Made by a program: the position numbers and the translations under genes. Below the pieces are notes generated by a model. It searched no databases and was not told the DNA's origin. It was given only the letters and a program-made list of their open reading frames with translations. Below, one piece after another: positions 307 to 47,663 of a stretch of DNA of 64,000 nucleotides; position 1 is the first letter of the stretch; the number at the start of each line of letters is the position of its first letter. Source of the stretch: a phage; the NCBI GenBank assembly GCA_024613925.1, contig GCA_024613925.1_4713.1; one strand, given 5' to 3'.

Positions 307-939
307 TCAAGACTTCACGACGCATTCGACTTCGTCGTTCATATAAGCTTCGTATAACGACAGCACTTCCTTCATTTTAATTTCAGGTAACGCAACGGAA
401 CGAATCGCTTTCAGGATATTCCGTGTTTGATGGTGTTTAACCTTCGCTTCACGGGATTTACAGAATTGACGAATACAGGTATTAACCTTACCGCCTTCTG
501 CACGTTCGAGGGCGACATGCAGTTTCAGGTCAAGTAATACTTCCGTGAGTTCCTGGGTGGCAGGATCGTTACGAATAAGCCGCACCGTCCGTTCATCTGG
601 ATTCAGCATCTCGAGGAACTGAAGCTTGATCTGTTCGGGTACGGGTTTCGTGTTCATCATGATGGCATCAAGCTGTTCCTTAACACCCGGCTCATTGAAC
701 ACGTAACGTTCGATGCTTACGACGTGTGCTTTTCCTGACTCGCCATAAACCGCCATCGCACGATAGTCATCAAACAACACAGCATACAACAAATCCTGTT
801 CCGGTCCGATGGTACCATCCATGAGCTTCGGCGCATGCTTCTTCAGGAAGCCATAGCGAACAGCCTCATCCGGCATGAGCGTCCACGCATTAACGGGTTG
901 CTTTACGAGTTCCATGTAACACCTCATCAAGATTATCAC
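307..939 (-). CDS. hypothetical protein
   Basis: 210-aa ORF from track; start uncertain (in-frame Met at 939, 915 or 876; 876 avoids overlap with upstream gene). Confidence 0.5.
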   Translation of the reverse strand: MIILMRCYMELVKQPVNAWTLMPDEAVRYGFLKKHAPKLMDGTIGPEQDLLYAVLFDDYRAMAVYGESGKAHVVSIERYVFNEPGVKEQLDAIMMNTKPVPEQIKLQFLEMLNPDERTVRLIRNDPATQELTEVLLDLKLHVALERAEGGKVNTCIRQFCKSREAKVKHHQTRNILKAIRSVALPEIKMKEVLSLYEAYMNDEVECVVKS

Positions 940-1616: not shown

Positions 1617-2594
1617 TTACTTTTTCCTGAAAATTAATGTCGGTAAGCCGTTTCTTACAGCATAATACAACACTAAGAGGTTAATCTTGCCAGCGGATAC
1701 CGTAAGCATTTTACGACGACGTGGTAAACTAACCGGTACGGTAGATGCCATCGTTGCGCTGTTCTTGAACGTTTGGGAATAACGTCGCAGCGATGCTTCA
1801 CCTAACAATGGAAGGAACAGATCCTCAGTAAGAATATCATCGCAGATATACGTAATCGCAAGTAACGGCGGATTCCACTCGTTCAGGAACTCGAAAATCT
1901 CGTTTGCGATACCCAGCGCGTTATTGGGAAGCGGAACCTCACGAACGTATTTCTGATTGCCTTTATCCAGCAGGATTCTTGACATACAGTAATCGTGGAT
2001 TATACCCGAAATATCATCCGCTGTTTCTGCGCTCTGCATCAACGCCTGTGCTTCTTCCCAGGTCAGTTGACGTTTTGTTTCGTAGTAGGTTGGTTTCAAA
2101 ACCGCGTAAAAATCGTGGATTAAGCGACCAACGTCCCCGCGGGTTTTCTCCGCCAACGCGATCGCGTATGCTTTCTTCTCCGCATCCGTTAAGATCTGAT
2201 TGCGCCACAGCTCGTATTCGTCTAACAGCTCGGTATATTTAGCTGTCCATTCAGAGGAAAGATAATAACCAATACTGTCAATCAATGCGTGCGTTAAAAC
2301 ACCCAGACGCTCCCGTCTTGGATCGACCGACGGCTCATAGACAAAAGGTAGCTTCGGTTTTTCAAAGCCGCTGGCTACGACGGTATCTGAAAAAGCGTTA
2401 GCGAAAACACCCATCGGTTTCCACGACGTAAGGAGATCCTGATACAGCATTGGATGAACGTTATTAATCGCTGTGAGTTTGTCATCGAAAAGACTCACGC
2501 TTGGATGTTCGGCATTCGCAAGCTCAAAATAAATTCTTTCGAGCAATGCCTTTACCGCATCGCGTGTCTTATCGATTGGGCCAACAGAAGCCAT
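1617..2594 (-). CDS. hypothetical protein
   Basis: 325-aa ORF, no recognisable motif. Confidence 0.6.
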   Translation of the reverse strand: MASVGPIDKTRDAVKALLERIYFELANAEHPSVSLFDDKLTAINNVHPMLYQDLLTSWKPMGVFANAFSDTVVASGFEKPKLPFVYEPSVDPRRERLGVLTHALIDSIGYYLSSEWTAKYTELLDEYELWRNQILTDAEKKAYAIALAEKTRGDVGRLIHDFYAVLKPTYYETKRQLTWEEAQALMQSAETADDISGIIHDYCMSRILLDKGNQKYVREVPLPNNALGIANEIFEFLNEWNPPLLAITYICDDILTEDLFLPLLGEASLRRYSQTFKNSATMASTVPVSLPRRRKMLTVSAGKINLLVLYYAVRNGLPTLIFRKK

Positions 2595-2608
2595 GTAAAT
2601 TATCCTCG

Positions 2609-2875
2609 TTAAAAAGTACCCATGATCGATAGGGCAATATGGTCTTTGTTCGCACGCGCTTGTAACGACATATCAAGACCGCTTTTCTTAATATGCCAAC
2701 GTGCCACCAGTTCCGGTTGGTCAACGGAATACAGCCCTTCTCGATGTTGATTCAACCATTTAGCAATTGGATGCAATTTATCAGGATCGACCACACCCAA
2801 TTCCAACCCACCGGGTGTTAATGGTTTAGAATAAAAGTCAAGTGCGTTCCGTAAAAAGTCATCCTCGATGCTCAT
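2609..2875 (-). CDS. hypothetical protein
   Basis: 88-aa ORF; its ATG overlaps the TGA of the small upstream ORF (ATGA). Confidence 0.5.
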   Translation of the reverse strand: MSIEDDFLRNALDFYSKPLTPGGLELGVVDPDKLHPIAKWLNQHREGLYSVDQPELVARWHIKKSGLDMSLQARANKDHIALSIMGTF

Positions 2876-2988
2876 CGTAGCATACCTACCATGCCGATTA
2901 CAGCAAACAGTACGCCGACAGCGCTATACGCAAGCAGCGCTTTAGCAACCCAAGTTTTTATTTCTGTATACTCTTCATTATTCACCAT
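2872..2988 (-). CDS. small membrane protein (38 aa), not in ORF track
   Basis: ATG 2988..2986 with GAGGTG upstream; MVNNEEYTEIKTWVAKALLAYSAVGVLFAVIGMVGMLR has one predicted TM helix; TGA overlaps next ATG. Confidence 0.35.
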   Translation of the reverse strand: MVNNEEYTEIKTWVAKALLAYSAVGVLFAVIGMVGMLR

Positions 2989-3040
2989 GTTTCACCTCGT
3001 TCGGCTGTTGTCTGATCTCATACCTTTACTTAAGCGTATC

Positions 3041-3059
3041 CCCCGTCATTAAGACGGGG
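3041..3059 (-). terminator. GC hairpin (ccccgtc-attaa-gacgggg) at 3' end of gene 3066..3440
   Basis: Perfect 7-bp stem read directly; 7 nt after stop on minus strand. Confidence 0.4.
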
Positions 3060-7016: not shown

Positions 7017-7046
7017 TCTAAACTCCTAAAATAAATCTCGATATTC

Positions 7047-7340
7047 TTAATGCAATTGCTTCTTAAAACCTAATTTAAGAAGCGTCATTCTCTTGTCGAT
7101 GGTATCCAATGCTTCCAGCAAGGATTCACGCTGTTCTTTCGTAAGCGTATCGACGCGTAGACGCTCGTTAATTCTCGTCTTAAGCTGTATATGCATGGTT
7201 TGTGTAAGTATGCTATCAGCTTCTATCTCGTAACTATTCTTCGGTGGGGGTAATGCTGCAATAACACCAACGAGATAACAACCGAGAATGGTCATTCGTT
7301 TATCCATTGCTTCTAGCAGCTCAGAACTTACTTCATCCAT
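7047..7340 (-). CDS. hypothetical protein
   Basis: 97-aa ORF. Confidence 0.5.
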   Translation of the reverse strand: MDEVSSELLEAMDKRMTILGCYLVGVIAALPPPKNSYEIEADSILTQTMHIQLKTRINERLRVDTLTKEQRESLLEALDTIDKRMTLLKLGFKKQLH

Positions 7341-7341
7341 G

Positions 7342-7617
7342 TTAATCCTCCATGAGTTCCTTTATTTCTTTTACGATCTGTGTAATACGCGACGGTGTAA
7401 AGCCGTACCGTTTAGCTATTTCCTTATTGCTCGTGCCATTTAAATGGTCGCGATATATCATTGCACGATTTAGTATTTTGATATCGTCAGAAAGTTCTAA
7501 TAGTCTAGCGACCTCACGATCGTCAAGTTTGTTTTTCGTGTTTAAGCTATGTTCTATTACGCTTAACTCAGCCTTACAACTCTTGATAAAATCACCAACG
7601 GTGGTAATAACTTGCAT
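7342..7617 (-). CDS. small HTH protein resembling sigma-70 region 4
   Basis: 91 aa; ...DDREVARLLELSDDIKILNRAMIYRDHLNGTSNKEIAKRYGFTPSRITQIVKEIKELM matches the region-4 pattern (helix, then T-x-x-E-I-A, then S-R-I-x-Q-I) from memory. Confidence 0.45.
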   Translation of the reverse strand: MQVITTVGDFIKSCKAELSVIEHSLNTKNKLDDREVARLLELSDDIKILNRAMIYRDHLNGTSNKEIAKRYGFTPSRITQIVKEIKELMED

Positions 7618-7637
7618 AAATCACCTATTTCCGTGTT

Positions 7638-7659
7638 GCGGGTGGATGCGCCCACCCGC
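7638..7659 (-). terminator. GC hairpin (gcgggtgg-atgcg-ccacccgc) after thyA
   Basis: 8-bp perfect stem 10 nt after the thyA stop. Confidence 0.45.
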
Positions 7660-7668
7660 ATCGTTAAT

Positions 7669-8688
7669 TTACACCGCCACCTTAGCCTTGATAGCCGGAT
7701 GTGATTGATATCCAACGAACACAAAGTCTTCGTAACGGTAATCCGTAATACTTTCCGGTTTACGTACGATTGTTAGCTTCGGTAATGGGTACGGCTCACG
7801 ACCGAGCTGCTCTTTAACCTGTTCGAAGTGGTTGTGATAGATGTGGCAATCCCCACCCGTCCACACGAACTCACCAACGTCCATATTCAGCTGTTGGGCA
7901 AGCATATGCGTCAGCAACGAATATGATGCGATGTTGAACGGTGTTCCGAGCAACACGTCCTGTGATCTGGCTAACAGCATACAAGACAAGGCACGTGTTG
8001 GTACGTTATGCGCATTCAACCAAAGTTCCGTTTCACTATGTCGTACATCATCCGTAACCCACTGAGTTCTTAATACGTCGTTGCGTTGAACATAATCAAC
8101 GCGTTCATCGACTGTGAGTTCGTGGGTATAGAACTGATAGAAACTGTGGCATGCGGGAAGCGCCATATCGTCTAAATCGCCTACGTTCCACGCGCTAACG
8201 ATGATCCGTCGAGAATCAGGATCTTCTTTAAGCTGATGTATCACGTTTGCAATCTGATCGTGAGGTTTAACATACACGAGGTGTTTTAGCATACCGTCAT
8301 TAAGAATGCCGCAATACTCATAGCCGCGTTGCATCAACTCACGAGTACGTTCTGTATCGTGCGGAACAACCACTTTGTAGTCGATCCATTCCCGCCATTG
8401 TTTGCCGTAAATCGGTCCTAGATTCCCTTCTTCGTCAGCCCATTCATTCCAGATACGAACACCGTTATCTTGAAGATAAACAACGTTTGTGTCACCGTTA
8501 AGAAACCAGAGCAGTTCGTGGATAACGCTCTTAAGGTGAATCTTCTTGGTGGTTACCAGCGGGAATCCTTTCTTCAAGTCAAAACGCATTTGACGCCCGA
8601 ATACGGAACGGGTTCCGGTACCTGTACGATCGGCCTTATCGCGACCATTATCCATGATGTCTTGCAAAAGGTCCAAATACTGTTTCAT
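7669..8688 (-). CDS. thyA: thymidylate synthase (ThyA family) with two insertions
   Basis: Near-colinear with E. coli ThyA as I recall it (MKQYL..., [34 protein letters not shown], catalytic PACH, RSQD...PFNIASY, WTGGD). Asn in PFN argues dUMP rather than dCMP substrate. About 33 extra aa after GKQWREW and about 40 extra aa after FYQFY. Confidence 0.85.
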
Positions 8689-39578: not shown

Positions 39579-40360
39579 CAGAATTCCTCTAAGTTGCTGC
39601 TGCTAATAGTCCCCGTCGTAGACGGCACGTTTCTACTGCTTGCCGACGCTGTTGTTGAAGAAGTTCTGGCCAGATTCAATCCGTTTAATAACCCACGCTC
39701 TTTTACCGTACGACGTGAACCATCACGAACGTCGTAAAGGGGTACGTTATAATGGTCAAAAATCCGAAGCCATTGCACGTAATCAGCGACAACATGGTCT
39801 TTGCTTTCATTCGGGGCAAAGCGATCAAGCTGGTGGTCGACGTAAGCTTTAGCGCTTTCAGGATTGAAGTTATACTGTCGACGTGCTTTGTCCACCATCG
39901 CGAGGAAACATGTATTGGGGTCACGATTGATGTATGAACGCGTCCTGATAAAGATAGCCGGTACCGTAAACAGAACCTTGTTGTTATTCCCATCAGCAAC
40001 AATGTTAACGGCACGATGCGGTTGACCTGCTATCTTGCACCAATCGTGAACAATGGTACTGTTACTCAGCATCTCCGCGTATTCAGGATCCTGCGAAAAC
40101 ATTCCTGCGAACGGATACAAGAAATGTTTAACAAACAGCGATTCAGGCAGAATGTTGGGACGCGTCATCTCCTGTAAACCTTTTCGTAGAAGCTCGCTGT
40201 TGTCTACCAGCTCCTGCCACATATCCGGTCTTGTTTTCGGGATGGACGGGTCCTGAGCACGACGAATGCGTTCTTCTTCATTTACAACCACTACCCCAGC
40301 CGGATACCCCAATAAATCCGTTCCTTCGCTAACGTTGCTGTTAGTTTGGCGCGCCTTCAT
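39578..40360 (-). CDS. hypothetical protein
   Basis: 260-aa ORF. Confidence 0.5.
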   Translation of the reverse strand: MKARQTNSNVSEGTDLLGYPAGVVVVNEEERIRRAQDPSIPKTRPDMWQELVDNSELLRKGLQEMTRPNILPESLFVKHFLYPFAGMFSQDPEYAEMLSNSTIVHDWCKIAGQPHRAVNIVADGNNNKVLFTVPAIFIRTRSYINRDPNTCFLAMVDKARRQYNFNPESAKAYVDHQLDRFAPNESKDHVVADYVQWLRIFDHYNVPLYDVRDGSRRTVKERGLLNGLNLARTSSTTASASSRNVPSTTGTISSSNLEEF

Positions 40361-40748
40361 TTACTTCCTCCTGCCACTTGATAAAATTACCACGCTCGGA
40401 TCGCAGAACACCACCCAGATCGTACGATATACCTTTCTCTGTGACAATCCCACCAATCTGGAGATCGACACGTTCCGTCGTCGGATCGATATACTTGACA
40501 CGGACTTTCAATTCCACGCGATCGTAATAACGCATTAAATAATCATACAGCATCCGGTACGTCGCATCTTCCAATTTGGGTGCGCTATACTGCGATGTTG
40601 CAATGAGGTACGGTAGTGAAACGATAGAGCCTTGATAGCAATACGACTGGGAATAATTCGATATTGCGAAATTGGTCATTAACCCATCCAACTTTTTACC
40701 CGACGCGGTTAAAAAGCTCGACAGCCCAGGTAACGGATTCGATGCCAT
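40341..40748 (-). CDS. hypothetical protein
   Basis: 135-aa ORF. Confidence 0.5.
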   Translation of the reverse strand: MASNPLPGLSSFLTASGKKLDGLMTNFAISNYSQSYCYQGSIVSLPYLIATSQYSAPKLEDATYRMLYDYLMRYYDRVELKVRVKYIDPTTERVDLQIGGIVTEKGISYDLGGVLRSERGNFIKWQEEVNEGAPN

Positions 40749-43448: not shown

Positions 43449-43694
43449 TTAGCAATGGTTGTTAGTTGCTTCTATTTCGTCAAGATACGGTTCTACGTCA
43501 TCGCCCTCCACGAATTCGTTGAACCAACAGTCAATGGTAGAAATAACCGGCGACTGGTGTTCACATTTCTTAGATACCTTAAAAGGTACGTTATTATCCA
43601 TCATACCGAGTTCGGGTCGAAAACGCCCGAAATGTTTCGCAGTCCAAATATCTGGGACGATATGGTTGTTCATCGTAGTGTTCAGCATGAGTCG
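43449..43694 (-). CDS. RNA polymerase beta-prime N-fragment, exon 3 (or separately translated 79-aa segment from ATG 43688)
   Basis: Reading from 43694: RLMLNTTMNNHIVPD resembles E. coli beta-prime ARALMMSTNNILSPAN, directly downstream of NADFDGD in the alignment. Begins CGAC after G43695. Confidence 0.5.
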   Translation of the reverse strand, partial: RLMLNTTMNNHIVPDIWTAKHFGRFRPELGMMDNNVPFKVSKKCEHQSPVISTIDCWFNEFVEGDDVEPYLDEIEATNNHC

Positions 43695-44028
43695 CTACCT
43701 CATACCCGCAGCTTTACCTGCAGCTTCCGGTGTTACCGGAATGACCAGAATACATCTTATCCATATTCCAAATGGAACGTAGGACTTCCGCGCTGGATCT
43801 CGCTTGAGACCACGTATTCGTTGAACGTTCTCCTGAACGGAGCTTCGCTGCTGATCGAACATTGTCACGTACGGTAGGCGTCCCCGAAGGGATTGTCATT
43901 GAAGCCGCGTACATCCGCTACCTTGTTTCTACCTTATCGGTTCCTCTTACGAGGCGTAGCGGCCTTAGCCCTTCCCAGCAATTCACGGAATCCAAGCTCT
44001 TCCTTTCGGAAGGCAGGGCCTATGATTA
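43695..44028 (-). ncRNA. group I intron-like core, copy 2
   Basis: Minus-strand P (AATTGCTGGGAAG, 43983..43971), Q (GATCAGCAGC, 43856..43847), R (GTTCAACGAATACG, 43826..43813), S (AAGATGTATTCTGG, 43758..43745). P4 and P7 pairings hold with compensatory changes relative to copy 1. No ORF on coding strand. No IGS identified for its 5' junction. Confidence 0.5.
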
Positions 44029-44041
44029 AGCGTCACCGTCG
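44029..44041 (-). CDS. micro-exon CGACGGTGACGCT encoding the catalytic D-G-D of beta-prime
   Basis: Only GAYGGNGAY in the 725-nt interruption; follows G44042; joins exon 1 (...AAC GCA GAT TT) in frame to give NADFDGDA; CGACGGU is complementary 7/7 to ACCGUCG at 44375..44369 (P10). Confidence 0.55.
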
Positions 44042-44419
44042 CTGTTTATCGACTATATCTTCATCCTCGTTGCGAGGAGTCTCCCGTTTTGGTCTGTGTT
44101 TAACAGAGCCTACTCTACTCGACATCGCGTCTTTCGATAGTCTGTGAGCACACATCTTAACGAACATTCGTGGATTCCTAAACAGGTGAATGTTCTTGTT
44201 GAGATGCTTCGCTGCGGATTATTCCCGTCCTACCTCTTTTACCATATCCAGTTCATTACGCTGGCCCTCATCTGTGTCACCACGATGAGTTGGTGTGTAG
44301 TCCGATTACAGAAACTTCCCGTCAATTAGAGAGTTTTAACTATGTTCCTGTTACCAGAAACCAGATCCCGACGGTATCAATAAATCAACGTAAGTTATTG
44401 AATTTATTGAAAAAAACTG
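44042..44419 (-). ncRNA. group I intron, copy 1
   Basis: Minus-strand P (AATTGACGGGAAG, 44327..44315), Q (AATCCGCAGC, 44220..44211), R (GCTCACAGACTATCG, 44149..44135), S (AAGATATAGTCG, 44061..44050) match the classical consensus elements from memory. IGS GGAUCUG (44368..44362) pairs with exon-1 end CAGAUUU with U-G at the splice site; ends with G44042. Confidence 0.7.
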
Positions 44420-45675
44420 AAATCTGCGTTATAACCTTTGAGGATCATCACGCTTAACCCGATGGTGTTATCCTGCGGATCGCGTTTAACCTTGGTGATT
44501 TCAAGACATTGGTTACTGCTTCGGTCAAGTGATGGGTTTCGAACAAAACCACACACAATCCCATCGAACGGTGTATCAGCAATAAGCTCATCGTGCAGCT
44601 CGCTCATCATCGGATGATAATTACGGACATGTTCCGCAACGAACGCACGTGCTGCTCTCGGTGAATACCCACGATGGAATAGCTTGGATTGGATATGTTC
44701 TTTATTGGTTAAAGTAAATGGTGCGTATGGGAAATGCAGATGATAATAACGATGGTTCGCTGTTATCGAACTGATTACGGTACGCGTGGTGAATGGATGT
44801 AATGTACCTAATATGTTTTTACGTGTGATACCTTTCTTCTTACCGATGAACTCATCGAAAATCGCCGCATGGTATTGCAGCAGCTTCAATTGCACTTTCG
44901 CCATCCAGTTTTCTTTCTTTCTGGCGCTCAAAGGTGTTGTTGGATGATAGATGCTATTCAACGTACCGATAGCATCGATCGCACCTTCCATTTTGCTATC
45001 CGCATAACGACCGGTTGGCGTATTCTCGATAACGAACATCATGGCCGCAGGAAAGCTGATATACTGGCTGAAGAACTTATCACGATGGATACGGATGAAT
45101 TCTCGTAGTGTGTCAACTTTCTCCGTGTTCTTCGGTCCACGTAACGTCGGTCCTTTATACAAGATCTCCATGATGCGATCGAAGTTCTGTATAAAACTAT
45201 TTACGCCACGACGTATCCCGAATACATCGAATTGCTGCTCCAGATAGTTCTTGAGTTCGATGGGTCGTTTTACATTTGGACGGTAACTGGCATCAATGAG
45301 CCACGTCATCGTTTCAAAGCTTTTGATATTCAACTCGCTTGCCAGCACGAGATGGACCAACGGGTTAATGAACGCATCGATTCCTTCAGGAACGCGCGCC
45401 CAAACCGTCGAACGAATCTCTTGTTCTGCTGGGTAGGTTACAACCGTTTTACAGTTTGGACACACCGTGCCGAGCAGCTCACCACGATTGTAGAAACCAC
45501 AACCACATTGTGGTGTGATATCCAACGTATCGCTGGAGTAAACACGGGTGATAAAACTGTTTAATTTCTTCTTCTCTTCGACGACTTTTGTATCGTAATC
45601 GTTCAACAAAATCGGCGTAAAAGGAAGTTCTGCGAGCTGTCTATCGAAACTCACGATATCGAGCATGATGGCCAT
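44420..45675 (-). CDS. RNA polymerase beta-prime N-terminal fragment, exon 1
   Basis: GKKKGITRKNILGTLHPFTTRTVI resembles E. coli [31 protein letters not shown] resembles LNRAPTLHR; unspliced ORF ends ...GYNADF then SFFQ-stop, i.e. inside NADFDGD. N-terminal C-x-C...C-x-x-C zinc motif. AGGAGA upstream of ATG 45675. Confidence 0.7.
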
Positions 45676-45767: not shown

Positions 45768-47663
45768 TTAGAACAGGTTGAATGCCCCACCCATGTTGTT
45801 ACCGCCAACATTCGGACGATCGCTACGTGCGTAGATGTTGCCGGAGATGTTACCCAGACCACGAGCACGTGCTGCCATGTTACCACGAACAGCGGTACCT
45901 GCCAGGTGCTGGATGTTCTCAGGACGGATGGTGAAGCCAGCATCAGCCGCAGCTTCGATCAGCGCCTGCAGTGCTAACGGATCGAAGTCGTAACGCATTG
46001 CCCAGCCGGTTTGTTCCCAGCTACCAGACAGAACACGATCAATGATTTCGTGACGAGCGACAACACGCTGAGACATCGTCATATCGGTACGGTCGAAGCT
46101 GTCTTCCCAAGCTTCTACGGTATCCGGGTTAGTGATGTTCATCATGTACAGATCGTCCATATCACGAATATCGTGACGGTGACCATCCTGGTGGTTGTAG
46201 TAACCCAGCGGGATACGGTTACCGGTAGCGTAGACCAGCGGTTGGCCGTATTGATATTTCTTGCTGAAGCAACCCAGGGTAGTATCATCGAAGGCACGGT
46301 AGAGTGCTTTGTAACCTTCGGAGATTTCTTGAACTTTACCGTCAACGTTGCCCGTAAAGATCTTCTCAGCCGCCGGGATCATACGCAGCAGCCAGCTATA
46401 CTCGCCTTCTTCCGGTACGTCGATAGAAATCAGCAGAGACGGATACAGAACCTGTTGCAGGAACTTGTAAATCTGCTCGTTGGTTTGCGTAGACAGATCC
46501 AGCGGTGCAGTCACTTCAGGATCCAGCACCATCGCCAGAGCACCTGGGTTATGCGGACCAATACCACGAGCCGCGTTGCTGATTAAAGACTGTGCCCATG
46601 CCATGCCGCTGTTCAGCGTAGCGATGGTACCAATCAGACCCAGCACGAAGCTGTTCGGTGTGAACGCATCCAGCTCCAGCGGGTAAACGCTGGTCATCAC
46701 GTAACGCGGCTGGTACTGTACAGTCGGCGGTACCGGATAGCCGTTAACCAGAACAGGGCCTTGGTTGAAGGTCGGGTTCTGCGGGCTGTAGGTCAGGTCA
46801 ATGTAACCGGTGGTGGCGACCAGACGCTGTTGACTATCGTAATCGCTCATCGCTTGACGGATGCGGTTAGAGATAGTTACAGTGATGTCAGAACGCACAG
46901 GGTTACCAACAATATCGCTGTCCTGCATACCGCTGGTGTTGTACTGAACGCTGCTGATTGGCTGATCGCTTGCCATCATGCCCAGGTTGAACTGCGGCAG
47001 ACCCAGTTTATCACCGAGACGGATTTCGATCGCGGTTTGGATTGCGTTATCTGCAGCAGACAGCAGGGTGGTTGCCAGATGCGCAGATTCAGCGGTGATT
47101 TCATTGGTCACCACAGCCAGACCAGCGATACGAACAGTACCGTTAGACTTACCGCCAATAGCTGAATACATTGCCGCCATGACTTCGTTGATGAACGTAC
47201 CGTTCAGGTTATCAACCCAGGTACGCGGTACCAGAATGTTACCATGCGGACCTTGTTCTTCACGACGCGGCAGCGGAGCCAGACCAGCAACCAGCGGCAG
47301 GACGTAACCGAAGAAGTGGTTATGATCACCAACTTTTGCACCGCTCATAACAACCAGGGTCGGATACGGTACGCTGTACTGGTTCGGGTCAACCGCAACA
47401 AAGATGAAGTCGTCTTTGAACTGGGTATCTTCCAGATATTTCTCCATCAGACGACGGAGATTCAGTACCTGCTCGGAGCCGGTATTACGGCTGATACGAC
47501 GGCTCAGTGTACGGTTGATCGTACGCATCGTATGAGTTACTTTAGGACGGTCGGCAAAATCTGCAGCGGTTTCCAGCGCCTCATCAGCACGTTGTGCGGT
47601 GCGGGTTTCAGCTGCACGAATTTCTACATTATCGTTACCGTTATTACGTACGTCTAAGCCCAT
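45768..47663 (-). CDS. abundant structural/shell-type protein; candidate chimallin (phage-nucleus shell), alternatively a virion protein
   Basis: 631 aa; lies immediately upstream of the beta-prime N gene, which I recall is the chimallin/nvRNAP arrangement in phiKZ; own promoter motif and strong hairpin. No sequence-level confirmation possible here. Confidence 0.3.
   Translation of the reverse strand: MGLDVRNNGNDNVEIRAAETRTAQRADEALETAADFADRPKVTHTMRTINRTLSRRISRNTGSEQVLNLRRLMEKYLEDTQFKDDFIFVAVDPNQYSVPYPTLVVMSGAKVGDHNHFFGYVLPLVAGLAPLPRREEQGPHGNILVPRTWVDNLNGTFINEVMAAMYSAIGGKSNGTVRIAGLAVVTNEITAESAHLATTLLSAADNAIQTAIEIRLGDKLGLPQFNLGMMASDQPISSVQYNTSGMQDSDIVGNPVRSDITVTISNRIRQAMSDYDSQQRLVATTGYIDLTYSPQNPTFNQGPVLVNGYPVPPTVQYQPRYVMTSVYPLELDAFTPNSFVLGLIGTIATLNSGMAWAQSLISNAARGIGPHNPGALAMVLDPEVTAPLDLSTQTNEQIYKFLQQVLYPSLLISIDVPEEGEYSWLLRMIPAAEKIFTGNVDGKVQEISEGYKALYRAFDDTTLGCFSKKYQYGQPLVYATGNRIPLGYYNHQDGHRHDIRDMDDLYMMNITNPDTVEAWEDSFDRTDMTMSQRVVARHEIIDRVLSGSWEQTGWAMRYDFDPLALQALIEAAADAGFTIRPENIQHLAGTAVRGNMAARARGLGNISGNIYARSDRPNVGGNNMGGAFNLF

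What the first reader, a model, noticed from the sequence alone, without database searches (positions are those of the whole stretch)
44029..44041. 13-nt micro-exon supplies the D-G-D aspartates; P1 and P10 pairings define the intron-1 junctions
The intron-1 guide region ACCGUCG-GGAUCUG (44375..44362) pairs on its 3' half with the exon-1 end CAGAUUU (44426..44420; 7 bp, U-G at the splice site) and on its 5' half with CGACGGU (44041..44035; 7 bp), immediately after G44042. Joining 44420 to 44041 gives ...AAC GCA GAT TT|C GAC GGT GAC GCT = N-A-D-F-D-G-D-A in frame. GACGGTGAC is the only DGD-encoding 9-mer in the interval. Micro-exons between two group I introns are rare.
Basis: partly seen in the sequence, partly recalled or inferred. 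Interest (0 to 1): 0.85.

Follow-up and report, generated by a model that had tools for sequence, protein, structure and literature searches.

The report
Micro-exon between two phage self-splicing introns
In this Goslar-like giant E. coli phage, the gene for the catalytic subunit of the phage's own RNA polymerase is cut by two self-splicing introns only 13 bases apart, and that 13-base exon carries two of the three active-site aspartates, so the enzyme can work only if both introns are removed precisely.

Summary
On the minus strand, next to the chimallin gene, lies the non-virion RNA polymerase beta-prime N-terminal gene. It is split as exon 1 (45675..44420), intron 1 (44419..44042), a 13-nt exon CGACGGTGACGCT (44041..44029), intron 2 (44028..43674) and exon 3 (43673..43449).

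Joining the exons gives a 497-aa protein reading ...GYNADFDGDAMNNH.... It aligns without gaps to uninterrupted homologues and regains a Pfam RNA polymerase hit.

- The P1 pairing of intron 1 shows two compensatory changes against phage Goslar.
- The intron 2 fold has 31 of 99 pairs covarying.
- Near-identical phages carry each intron independently, present or absent, with exactly contiguous exon sequence at the empty sites.
- A relative has a third intron and a second 13-nt exon.
- A distant chimallivirus has its own 12-nt exon (DFDG) in the same motif.
- The exact spliced proteins exist as contiguous ORFs in public assemblies.

No RNA-level proof was obtainable. Mini-exons are routine in mitochondria, and one small exon between phage introns was reported in 2025. 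This is therefore a new variant of a known kind. It is unannotated in Goslar, and it reveals an intron hot-spot on the NADFDGD codons.

The parts
44420..45675 (-). Exon 1 of the nvRNAP beta-prime N-terminal subunit gene (phiKZ gp55-like). It ends ...AAC GCA GAT TT. If unspliced, the ORF runs on to a stop at 44404 (423 aa, ...NADFSFFQ*).
   Evidence: ORF list. It lies next to chimallin as in Goslar. tblastn hits nvRNAP beta-prime genes of about 300 jumbo phages. Exon 1 is 100% identical in protein to Goslar gp247/188.
44420..44426 (-). 5' strand of P1 of intron 1 (exon CAGAUUU). U44420 is the splice-site U of the U.G pair.
   Evidence: Compensatory changes against Goslar, L021 and L022.
44042..44419 (-). 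Intron 1: a 378-nt group I intron (IA-like) with no ORF, ending in omega-G 44042. Helices: P2 44361..44344; P3 44333..44329 with 44085..44081; P4 3' strand 44218..44213; P6a 44195..44162; P7 44142..44137 with 44056..44051; P7.1/P7.2 about 44137..44093; P8 44078..44064.
   Evidence: Rfam RF00028 match 44367..44042 over the full model 1-253, 44.6 bits, E 7e-10 and 4e-8 for the whole window. Goslar's copy is annotated Intron_gpI. Helix coordinates. No Pfam domain in internal ORFs.
44378..44409 (-). Hairpin inside the P1 loop of intron 1 (CAAUAAAUUCAA...UUGAUUUAUUG, 11 bp plus one bulged U).
   Evidence: The two differences from Goslar, L005 and the other intron-1 carriers tabulated (A44405>U, U44402>A) only move the bulge and keep all 11 pairs.
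44362..44375 (-). Internal guide of intron 1. ACCGUCG (44375..44369) is the P10 strand and GGAUCUG (44368..44362) is the P1 strand.
   Evidence: 17 of 200,000 shuffles; haplotype table.
44043..44046 (-). Point in the 3' tail of intron 1 where Goslar carries a 1065-nt insert encoding an HNH_3/NUMOD1 homing endonuclease, bracketed by a 14-nt inverted repeat. The window has no insert here.
44029..44041 (-). 13-nt micro-exon C GAC GGT GAC GCT. It completes the Phe codon and encodes D-G-D-A. Bases 44041..44035 pair in P10 of intron 1. Bases 44031..44029 pair in P1 of intron 2.
   Evidence: Variants CGACGGGGATGCT, CGACGGAGACGCT and CGATGGTGACGCT differ from it only by synonymous changes. The sequence is contiguous with both neighbouring exons in L016, L020, L023 and L026.
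43674..44028 (-). Intron 2: a 355-nt group I intron with no ORF, ending in omega-G 43674. Helices: P1 3' strand UAGGC 44022..44018; P10 guide UCAU 44025..44022; P2 44014..43996; P3 43990..43984 with 43792..43786; P4 43980..43975 with 43854..43849; P5 and extension 43971..43857; P6 43848..43825; P7 43819..43814 with 43753..43748; P7.1 43811..43796; P8 43785..43759; P9 43741..43725; P9.1 43723..43706; P9.2 43705..43685.
   Evidence: The Rfam hit is partial only (43990..43786, 16.7 bits, E 0.16). Covariation on alignment A4: 98.3% of cells paired, 31 of 99 pairs changed on both sides against 6.5+-2.1 in shuffles (0/500) and 1-2 in slid controls. P7 has 3 covarying pairs and P7.1 has 6 of 6. Paralogues reach 31-62 bits in Rfam.
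43449..43673 (-). Exon 3: ATG AAC AAC CAT... (MNNHIVPD... to the stop). Goslar annotates it as a separate 79-aa hypothetical protein because the intron-2 tail supplies an upstream ATG.

Best explanation
The gene for the beta-prime N-terminal subunit of the phage's non-virion RNA polymerase is interrupted, inside the codons of the universal Mg-binding motif NADFDGD, by two independent ORF-less group I introns. They sit 13 nt apart.

The pre-mRNA must undergo two group I splicing reactions, each a guanosine attack followed by exon ligation.

- Intron 1 recognises its 5' splice site through P1 (CAGAUUU with GGAUCUG, U44420.G44368). It aligns the micro-exon for ligation through a 7-bp P10 (ACCGUCG with CGACGGU) after omega-G 44042.
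- Intron 2 recognises the last three micro-exon bases through a short P1 (GCU with GGC, U44029.G). That P1 is extended by two intron-intron pairs. Intron 2 ligates to AUGAAC after omega-G 43674.

The mRNA then encodes a 497-aa protein with an intact ...NADFDGDAMNNH... motif.

The micro-exon is a by-product. Two separately mobile introns, driven in relatives by I-HmuI-like HNH endonucleases, have homed into neighbouring sites of the most conserved stretch of the gene.

What is shown here: the sequence anatomy, the covariation, the presence/absence polymorphism, the restoration of frame and domain, and the existence of the exact spliced ORFs. What is inferred: that splicing is autocatalytic, its order and its efficiency.
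For: **Junctions and frame**
-.
- Gap-free alignment to uninterrupted homologues.
- Pfam PF00623 is regained only after splicing.

**Intron 1**
- Rfam full-length match ending at G44042.
- The guide match is non-random.
- The MFE fold forms P1.
- P1 compensatory changes, and one in P10.

**Intron 2**
- Covariation-supported P2-P9.2, including the P3/P7 pseudoknot.
- Its paralogues at other sites all end on a G at the expected junction: L005 intron 0, L008 intron A, L015 intron X, L011 intron B.
- Their guide triplet or quadruplet covaries with the exon: GGC with GCU, GCCC with GGGU, GUC with GAU.

**Population evidence**
- Eleven occupancy patterns occur among phages 97-99% identical to the window.
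- L025 has intron 1 but not intron 2, and reads ...AAACAG|CGACGGAGACGCTATGAAC.
- L027 has intron 2 but not intron 1, and reads GATTTCGATGGTGACGCT|.
- L016, L020, L023 and L026 have neither.
- Conceptual splicing of four of these configurations gives the same 497-aa protein.

**Other support**
- Micro-exon variation is synonymous only.
- Exact spliced proteins P0074 (Goslar) and P0075 (window) occur as contiguous ORFs in public assemblies.
- An independent 12-nt exon GATTTCGACGGT lies between two above-threshold group I introns (54.8 and 68.3 bits) in distant chimallivirus L008.
- Goslar, a cultured viable phage, has the same two introns and the same micro-exon.
Against: - No RNA or peptide evidence could be inspected. 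The contigs carrying the uninterrupted ORFs could not be fetched, so they may be cDNA or intron-free alleles.
- Neither intron reaches Rfam's gathering score (44.6 and 16.7 bits against 50).
- P1 of intron 2 has only 3 exon base pairs. Its P10 is weak: 4 bp (UCAU with AUGA) with a bulged A.
- A one-base slide of the intron-2 boundaries (GC|U...C|GAUG) gives the same protein. It is excluded only by the U(-1)/omega-G rule.
- In relative L015 the homologous 5' splice site has C, not U, at -1, so the rule is not absolute in this family.
Confidence: 0.9

Rival explanations
1. The RNAs have a group I architecture, but efficient removal in vivo depends on a protein or RNA-chaperone cofactor from host or phage. 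On this view it is not true self-splicing, especially for intron 2 with its 3-bp exon P1.
For: Intron 2 has weak P1 and P10. Intron 2 scores only 16.7 bits against RF00028. In Bastillevirinae some phage introns spliced in vivo but not in vitro (PMC11878797).
Against: All core helices are present and covary. Family members with the same short guide occupy at least 4 different sites in viable phages. No maturase-like ORF lies in or next to the introns.
Confidence: 0.25
2. The splice junctions are real but offset from the reader's. For example, intron 2 would span 44029..43675 (GC|U...C|G AUG), or intron 1 would be shifted by its repeated C (44418..44041). The micro-exon would then not be exactly 44041..44029.
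For: Empty-site alleles cannot resolve a 1-nt slide. L016 and L026 read GCG ATG at the empty site. L015 tolerates C at -1.
Against: Only the stated junctions combine U at -1 with G at omega for both introns. P1 and P10 of intron 1 abut exactly at 44369/44368. The Rfam alignment ends on G44042. All family members end on G at the aligned position.
Confidence: 0.04
3. The 746 nt between exon 1 and exon 3 are removed as one unit, or not removed at all. The micro-exon would be an accident, and the phage would make a beta-prime fragment lacking DGD or two separate polypeptides of 423 and 79 aa, as GenBank annotates for Goslar.
For: This is the GenBank/RefSeq annotation of Goslar. Exon skipping by tandem group I introns is known (Twort orf142; SIOphi, PMC11878797).
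Against: - Skipping joins GAT TT|A TGA and gives ...NADL-stop (derived).
- NADFDGD is present in 52 of the 57 homologues that extend past the motif.
- The micro-exon is kept with synonymous-only changes.
- Each intron occurs alone in relatives.
- P10 of intron 1 targets the micro-exon.
- Exact full-length spliced ORFs exist.
Confidence: 0.03

Closest known systems
Self-splicing introns in other chimallivirus RNA polymerase genes: the PhiPA3 gp210 intron in the virion RNAP beta gene (gp211/209; Birkholz et al. 2024, PMC11620839) and PhiPA3 gp65-66 / phiKZ gp71-73, a non-virion RNAP subunit
   Same: A group I intron sits in an essential phage RNAP gene, at codons of conserved catalytic residues. 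It is associated with an HNH nicking endonuclease: Goslar's copy of intron 1 carries HNH_3 + NUMOD1. Intron 1 shares a 70-74% identical 90-110 nt core stretch with the PhiPA3 gp065 region.
   Different: The subunit differs (beta-prime N-terminal, not beta). There are two to three introns per motif instead of one. A 13-nt exon lies between them. The window copies have no endonuclease ORF. No competition phenotype was tested.
Small exon between two group I introns in Bacillus phage phiNIT1 ribonucleotide reductase, and exon skipping in SIOphi (Bastillevirinae; PMC11878797, 2025); Twort orf142 with three introns (Landthaler and Shub 1999, cited there; not readable here)
   Same: Tandem group I introns lie in one phage gene with a short internal exon that annotation pipelines miss. 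There is a risk of exon skipping.
   Different: The host clade differs (Gram-positive Herelleviridae against an enterobacterial nucleus-forming jumbo phage), as does the gene. Here the exon encodes active-site residues. Here the arrangement is polymorphic within one phage species, with up to three introns and two 13-nt exons. Those cases have cDNA proof and this one does not.
Mini-exons (under about 4 codons) between organellar group I/II introns, e.g. fungal cox1 (PMC10352661)
   Same: Very short exons are created by dense intron insertion in the most conserved part of a gene. They can be found only by noticing missing conserved residues.
   Different: Those occur in mitochondria and are often maturase-assisted. 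Here the context is a bacteriophage, with HNH-type homing endonucleases in relatives.
Phage T4 td / nrdB / sunY-type subgroup IA introns (comparison from memory, not tested against those sequences)
   Same: Both have extra hairpin(s) between P7 and P3', a J8/7-P7 consensus GAAGAUAUAGUC (intron 1), a short GGCC-type guide just after a UAAU... intron start (intron 2), and ORF insertion in peripheral loops.
   Different: No sequence-level homology was demonstrated here. The subgroup assignment is my inference, not a classifier result.

Membership tests
Group I intron (intron 1, 44419..44042) | Match to the curated covariance model RF00028 at or above its gathering score | tested here: not met
   44.6 bits against a gathering score of 50. 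The full model 1-253 is aligned, with E 7e-10 for the local search and 4e-8 for the whole window. The L005 copy scores 47.0 bits. This is a near miss, not an absence.
Group I intron (intron 1) | P1: 5' exon end paired to an internal guide, with a U.G wobble at the splice site | tested here: met
   7 bp, with U44420.G44368. Two compensatory pairs between haplotypes.
Group I intron (intron 1) | Terminal guanosine (omega-G), and P10 between the guide and the 3' exon | tested here: met
   G44042. P10 is 7 bp and contiguous with P1. There is an A-U to G-C variant in L021, and mismatches at the outermost pair in three other relatives.
Group I intron (intron 1) | Conserved core P3-P8 with P7 and J8/7 | tested here: met
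   The CM alignment places P3, P4, P6, P7 (GACUAU/AUAGUC), P8 and J8/7 GAAGAU. Only structure-neutral substitutions are available for covariation.
Group I intron (intron 2, 44028..43674) | Match to RF00028 at or above its gathering score | tested here: not met
   16.7 bits, E 0.16, covering only model positions 50-157. Paralogues of the same family score 26-62 bits.
Group I intron (intron 2) | Core helices P3-P9 including the P3/P7 pseudoknot, supported by covariation | tested here: met
   99 pairs, 98.3% of cells paired, and 31 pairs with changes on both sides against 6.5+-2.1 in shuffles (0/500). Slid controls give 1-2. P7 has 3 of 6 pairs covarying. Caveat: 6 sequences, and the structure is partly derived from them.
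Group I intron (intron 2) | U at -1 in P1 with a guide G; omega-G; P10 | tested here: inconclusive
   U44029.G and G43674 are present. But P1 has only 3 exon bp plus 2 intron bp, and P10 is 4 bp with a bulge. The guide covaries with the exon across paralogues. L015 has C at -1.
Group I intron (both) | GTP-dependent autocatalytic excision and exon ligation | not testable with these tools
   This needs an in vitro splicing assay or RNA-seq. The uninterrupted ORFs P0074 and P0075 could not be traced to cDNA or DNA.
Mobile (homing-endonuclease-bearing) group I intron | An intron-encoded homing endonuclease ORF | tested here: not met
   The window introns hold no ORF over 84 aa and no Pfam domain. 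Goslar's intron 1 has HNH_3 + NUMOD1. L021/L022 intron 1 and L016/L023 intron 0 carry other HNH ORFs.
Mobile group I intron | Presence/absence polymorphism with intact empty sites in close relatives | tested here: met
   Each of four introns is independently present or absent in genomes 97-99% identical to the window.
Multisubunit RNA polymerase beta-prime (double-psi beta-barrel, NADFDGD) | An intact NADFDGD Mg-binding motif and a Pfam RNA_pol_Rpb1_2 match | tested here: met
   This holds only for the spliced product: PF00623 at 36.9 bits (cut-off 25.3), residues 371-428. The motif aligns with 52 of the 57 homologues that extend past it.

The most novel reading that the evidence does not exclude
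The 31-33 nt that encode G-Y-N-A-D-F-D-G-D-A-M in the chimallivirus nvRNAP beta-prime gene may be an active battleground of competing homing elements. In one phage species (97-99% identity), four independently mobile group I introns segregate in at least 11 occupancy patterns. Some carry different HNH endonucleases. Across the family at least 7 insertion sites are used. Multiple occupancy, and hence the micro-exons, would be selected because each resident intron destroys the target of a rival endonuclease brought by a co-infecting phage into a shared or merged phage nucleus. That is the interference competition shown for PhiPA3 gp210, here multiplied and stacked on the polymerase active site.
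Probability: 0.25. Interest if true: 0.8.

Novelty: new variant of a known kind. Interest (0 to 1): 0.62.

Why it matters
**1. Annotation.** Goslar is a model nucleus-forming phage. Its catalytic nvRNAP subunit is annotated as a 423-aa 'RNA polymerase beta subunit' lacking two catalytic aspartates, plus a 79-aa hypothetical protein. The real product is a 497-aa protein. Expression constructs, knock-downs, proteomics databases and core-genome counts that use the fragments are wrong. Gene callers will keep missing such exons.

**2. Biology.** This is the densest stacking of group I introns I could document in a phage gene. Up to three introns lie within 26 nt of coding sequence, giving two consecutive 13-nt exons. 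Natural on/off variants exist for every intron. That makes a ready comparative system for three questions:
- how a ribozyme recognises a 13-nt exon (7 nt are used by P10 of one intron and 3 nt by P1 of the next);
- exon skipping;
- homing-endonuclease competition.

**3. Context.** In these phages transcription is confined to a protein-bounded nucleus and translation is outside. Intron folding therefore cannot be helped by ribosomes translating the upstream exon, as has been proposed for T4. This is testable here.

Tried and rejected
- **Rfam at gathering threshold on the window** gave nothing. The permissive mode was needed.
- **megablast/blastn of each intron against INPHARED phages** found only Goslar plus short core matches.
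- **MAFFT of distant paralogous introns** (A1, A2, A3) misaligned the variable middle, and one row used wrong coordinates. Only A4 was used for counting.
- **RNAalifold** cannot draw P7, which is part of a pseudoknot, and put small spurious hairpins there. It also drew a 3-bp closing helix (columns 7-9 with 361-363). I removed these before counting.
- **A possible 6-bp pairing of micro-exon GGUGAC with 43747..43742** was considered and rejected, because T43744 is A in all relatives, which breaks it.
A look-up through the shared neighbour gp180 returned only 234-244 kb genomic contigs, though these were useful for the haplotype table.
- **Degenerate spliced-junction pattern:** 0 hits in IMG/VR and 1 hit in metagenome contigs (L016).
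- **Spliced CDS against complete E. coli genomes and PLSDB plasmids:** no match.
- **L011** has an apparent 12/13-nt exon, but its phase cannot satisfy both U(-1) and omega-G. It is not counted as a clean example.
- **Literature:** no paper describing the Goslar beta-prime introns or this micro-exon was found. Landthaler and Shub 1999 could not be read.

Full report
**What the window is.** The region is 98% identical to Escherichia phage vB_EcoM_Goslar, a nucleus-forming jumbo phage. The feature lies on the minus strand directly downstream of the chimallin (nuclear shell) gene at 47663..45768. That is the position of the non-virion RNA polymerase (nvRNAP) beta-prime N-terminal subunit gene, the phiKZ gp55 / PhiPA3 gp054 type. 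RefSeq annotates Goslar here as follows:
- a 423-aa 'RNA polymerase beta subunit';
- an ncRNA 'Intron_gpI';
- an HNH endonuclease;
- a 79-aa hypothetical protein.

No exon join and no micro-exon is annotated.

**Checking the observation.**
- Exon 1 ends ...AAC GCA GAT TT at 44420.
- The guide ACCGUCGGGAUCUG is at 44375..44362.
- Its 3' half pairs with CAGAUUU (44426..44420), including U44420.G44368.
- Its 5' half pairs with CGACGGU (44041..44035), immediately after G44042.

With intron 2 taken as 44028..43674 (U44029 at -1, G43674 as omega-G), the three exons total 1256+13+225 = 1494 nt. They encode 497 aa reading ...ILKGYNADFDGDAMNNHIVPD.... GACGGTGAC is the only DGD 9-mer in the interval. 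A 14/14 match of the guide to the ligated junction arises in 17 of 200,000 shuffles of the first 120 intron bases. The free minimum-energy fold forms this P1 unaided.

**Protein-level test of the junctions.** The closest uninterrupted homologues are P0002 (65% identity, also next to a chimallin gene, L003) and P0003 (62%). They read GYNADFDGDAMNHH and YNADFDGDEMNNH. They and about 60 further homologues align across both junctions without a gap. Pfam RNA_pol_Rpb1_2 (PF00623) hits residues 371-428 of the spliced protein above its cut-off. It does not hit the 423-aa exon-1 ORF.

**Intron 1.** Rfam RF00028 aligns its full length (model positions 1-253) to 44367..44042 and ends on G44042. The score is 44.6 bits, with E 7e-10 locally and 4e-8 over the whole window. 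This is just under the gathering score of 50, which is why the default scan was empty.

The alignment shows P3, P4, P6, P7 (GACUAU/AUAGUC), P8, the J8/7 sequence GAAGAU, and extra hairpins between P7 and P3'. I read the last feature as subgroup IA-like. That is my inference.

The best evidence is covariation between two natural haplotypes:

| Haplotype | Exon end | P1 guide | Carriers |
|---|---|---|---|
| 1 | CAGAUUU | GGAUCUG | window, L005, L018, L025 |
| 2 | CCGACUU | GAGUCGG | Goslar, L021, L022 |

Two synonymous exon changes (GCA>GCC, GAT>GAC) are matched by the exactly opposite guide changes. A third guide change turns a U.G pair into U-A.

In P10, L021 pairs exon ...GGC with guide GCC..., a G-C pair where the window has A-U. 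Three other relatives mismatch at that outermost pair. The 32-nt hairpin in the P1 loop keeps 11 bp through a bulge shift. A44191>G keeps a pair as G.U.

**Intron 2.** Rfam sees only its P3-P7 half (16.7 bits, E 0.16). I modelled it by hand and with RNAalifold on an alignment of six copies (A4): window, Goslar, L005, L013, and the two L015 introns. The two L015 introns differ from the window copy far more than the other three copies do: L015 intron X is about 79% identical over the part that blastn aligns, and L015 intron 2' about 95% identical over its 3' two-thirds with an unrelated 5' end. With P7 added as the pseudoknot partner, the counts were:
- 98.3% of 588 cells pair;
- 31 of 99 pairs have changes on both sides, against 6.5+-2.1 in shuffles (0 of 500 reach it) and 1-2 when partners are slid;
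- P7 (GAAUAC/GUAUUC, GAGUA/UACUC, GAUCAU/AUGAUC) covaries at 3 pairs;
- P7.1 covaries at 6 of 6 pairs, and P2, P5a, P6, P8, P9 and P9.2 at 1-4 pairs each.

Its P1 is short: exon GCU with guide GGC, then U44028-A and A44027-U. Across paralogous introns at other sites the guide tracks the exon: GGC with GCU, GCCC with GGGU, GUC with GAU. All copies end on G at the aligned position. P10 is weak, UCAU with AUGA and one bulged A.

So the 13-nt exon is partitioned. Its first 7 nt serve P10 of intron 1. Its last 3 nt serve P1 of intron 2.

**Population evidence.** A protein shared with Goslar (gp180, window 40341..40748) is listed in 1003 blocks of the public collection. Ten 234-244 kb genomes were retrieved, and further relatives came from other searches. 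In these phages, 97-99% identical to the window, four introns occupy four sites within 31 nt:
- GGN T|AT ('intron 0');
- GCT|GAC ('intron X');
- GAT TT|C (intron 1);
- GCN|ATG (intron 2).

The occupancy patterns seen were:

| Introns present | Loci |
|---|---|
| 1+2 | window, L019 |
| 1(HEG)+2 | Goslar |
| 0+1+2 | L005, L013, L018 |
| 0+1 | L025 |
| 0+2 | L027 |
| 0 only | L026 |
| 0(HEG) only | L016, L023 |
| X only | L020 |
| X+2' | L015, L024 |
| 1(other HEG) only | L021, L022 |

Empty sites are exactly contiguous:
- L025 reads ...GATAAACAG|CGACGGAGACGCTATGAACAAC.
- L027 reads GCTGATTTCGATGGTGACGCT|intron 2.
- L026 and L016 read ATAATGCTGATTTCGACGGGGACGCGATGAAC.

This fixes both junctions of the micro-exon to within a one-base slide. 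The U(-1)/omega-G rule resolves that slide.

In the three-intron genomes there are two consecutive 13-nt exons, ATAATGCAGATTT and CGACGGNGAYGCT. The third intron scores 31 bits in Rfam. Conceptual splicing of four of these layouts gives the same 497-aa protein with 0-1 substitutions. All variation inside the micro-exon is synonymous and at third positions.

**Uninterrupted ORFs.** The exact 497-aa spliced sequences of Goslar (P0074) and of this window (P0075) are present in the 15-billion-protein collection. Each is on one short Logan contig, 8.8 kb and 1.9 kb. Ordinary gene callers cannot have joined a 13-nt exon, so these are contiguous ORFs. They are either spliced cDNA or fully intron-free alleles. 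I could not fetch the contigs. Either reading confirms the predicted ligated sequence at the protein level.

**Beyond Goslar-like phages.** Many metagenomic chimallivirus homologues are truncated inside NADFDGD. The inspected contigs show group I introns, often with homologous I-HmuI-like HNH endonucleases, at these sites:
- GCT|GAT and GGT|GAT (L008);
- GGT|GAT (L006, 87.8 bits);
- GAT| after NAD (L007);
- GAT| after DGD (L009).

L008 is only about 31% identical in protein. It has two above-threshold introns (54.8 and 68.3 bits) that flank a 12-nt exon GATTTCGACGGT (DFDG). That exon is preceded by G and ends in U. The P1 of the downstream intron is GACGGU/GCCGUC. Splicing gives ...APNADFDGDALNYSL... 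through to a stop. The micro-exon phenomenon is therefore recurrent at this motif.

**Mechanism.** The mechanism is standard group I chemistry, performed twice. The steps inferred rather than shown are autocatalysis, splicing order and efficiency. Joining exon 1 directly to exon 3 would read GAT TTA TGA, which gives ...NADL-stop. Exon skipping, known for tandem phage introns (PMC11878797), would therefore yield an inactive fragment.

The window introns have no endonuclease ORF. Goslar carries its HNH/NUMOD1 gene in a stem inserted 1-4 nt before omega-G of intron 1.

**Comparison and novelty.** The following are already known:
- introns in chimallivirus RNAP genes (PMC11620839; bioRxiv 10.1101/2023.09.22.559000);
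- mitochondrial mini-exons (PMC10352661);
- one small exon between phage introns (PMC11878797).

I found no description of these beta-prime introns, of this micro-exon, or of the hot-spot. I rate it a new variant of a known kind. It has real annotation consequences and is an attractive natural system.

**Verdict.** Observation confirmed. Interpretation supported. Confidence 0.9 that the mature mRNA contains the 13-nt exon at the stated junctions.

Noticed in passing
L005 1467..1833; also L013 and L018 (corresponds to window 44433/44432): Relatives carry a third group I intron ('intron 0', about 366 nt, Rfam 31 bits) in the Tyr codon (GGG T|AT). This creates a second 13-nt exon, ATAATGCAGATTT, just upstream of the one in the finding. 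L016 and L023 have the same intron with a 324-aa HNH endonuclease in its P1 loop. P0081 suggests a different intron at the same site.
   Followed up: partly
L015 4267..4991; also L024 and L020: The commonest Goslar-like haplotype (434-aa exon-1 ORF, 84 contigs) lacks intron 1. Instead it has 'intron X' at GCT|GAC, a paralogue of intron 2 (about 79% identical over the aligned part). This gives an 18-nt exon, GACTTTGACGGTGATGCC. Its downstream intron 2' has a replaced P1-P2 region and C instead of U at the 5' splice site. Its guide, GCCAUGGC, is perfectly complementary to GCC|AUG.
   Followed up: partly
L008 5228..5937: A distant chimallivirus (about 31% protein identity) has two above-threshold group I introns flanking a 12-nt exon GATTTCGACGGT (DFDG) in the same motif. 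The same contig carries an IS605 OrfB/TnpB (Cas12f1-like) gene at 7019..8251.
   Followed up: partly
L011 4760..5625: Another chimallivirus contig has two introns (75.4 and 61.9 bits) around CTTCGATGGTGAT. No phase satisfies both U at -1 and G at omega for the first intron: the choices are GAU|...C| or GA|...G|.
   Followed up: partly
window 40341..40748 (-) and loci L018-L027: Goslar-like genomes are very widespread. The 135-aa gp180 protein is listed in 1003 blocks of the public collection. These include about 240-kb contigs inside NCBI isolate assemblies labelled Salmonella, E. coli, Shigella and Enterobacter. That suggests carrier-state or contaminating jumbo phage in clinical and food isolates. 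None is in complete RefSeq E. coli genomes or PLSDB.
   Followed up: no
L019 (region 609..664 of the extracted segment, within intron 2): One relative's intron 2 has a 56-nt segment replacing about 20 nt in the P6 region, that is, a peripheral insertion variant.
   Followed up: no
L021/L022 about 2094..3056 versus L001 3191..4201: Intron 1 carries two different endonuclease ORFs in different relatives: a 320-aa HNH_3 protein in L021/L022 and a 336-aa HNH_3/NUMOD1 protein in Goslar. The sequences just upstream of omega-G also differ (...AAACTGAAG| versus ...GCACGTAAG|).
   Followed up: no
L012 11587..11612 and L014 8966..8991: The P9.2/3'-tail signature of the intron-2 family (GGGTATGnnGTAGCGAnnCATnCTGA) also occurs in two unrelated IMG/VR contigs (138 kb and 168 kb), in genes I did not identify. 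The family is therefore not restricted to RNAP genes.
   Followed up: no
window 43449..43688 (-): The 79-aa 'hypothetical protein' ORF (Goslar gp185) is an annotation artefact. Its first five codons, MLNTT, come from the 3' tail of intron 2. The real exon starts at the second ATG (43673).
   Followed up: yes
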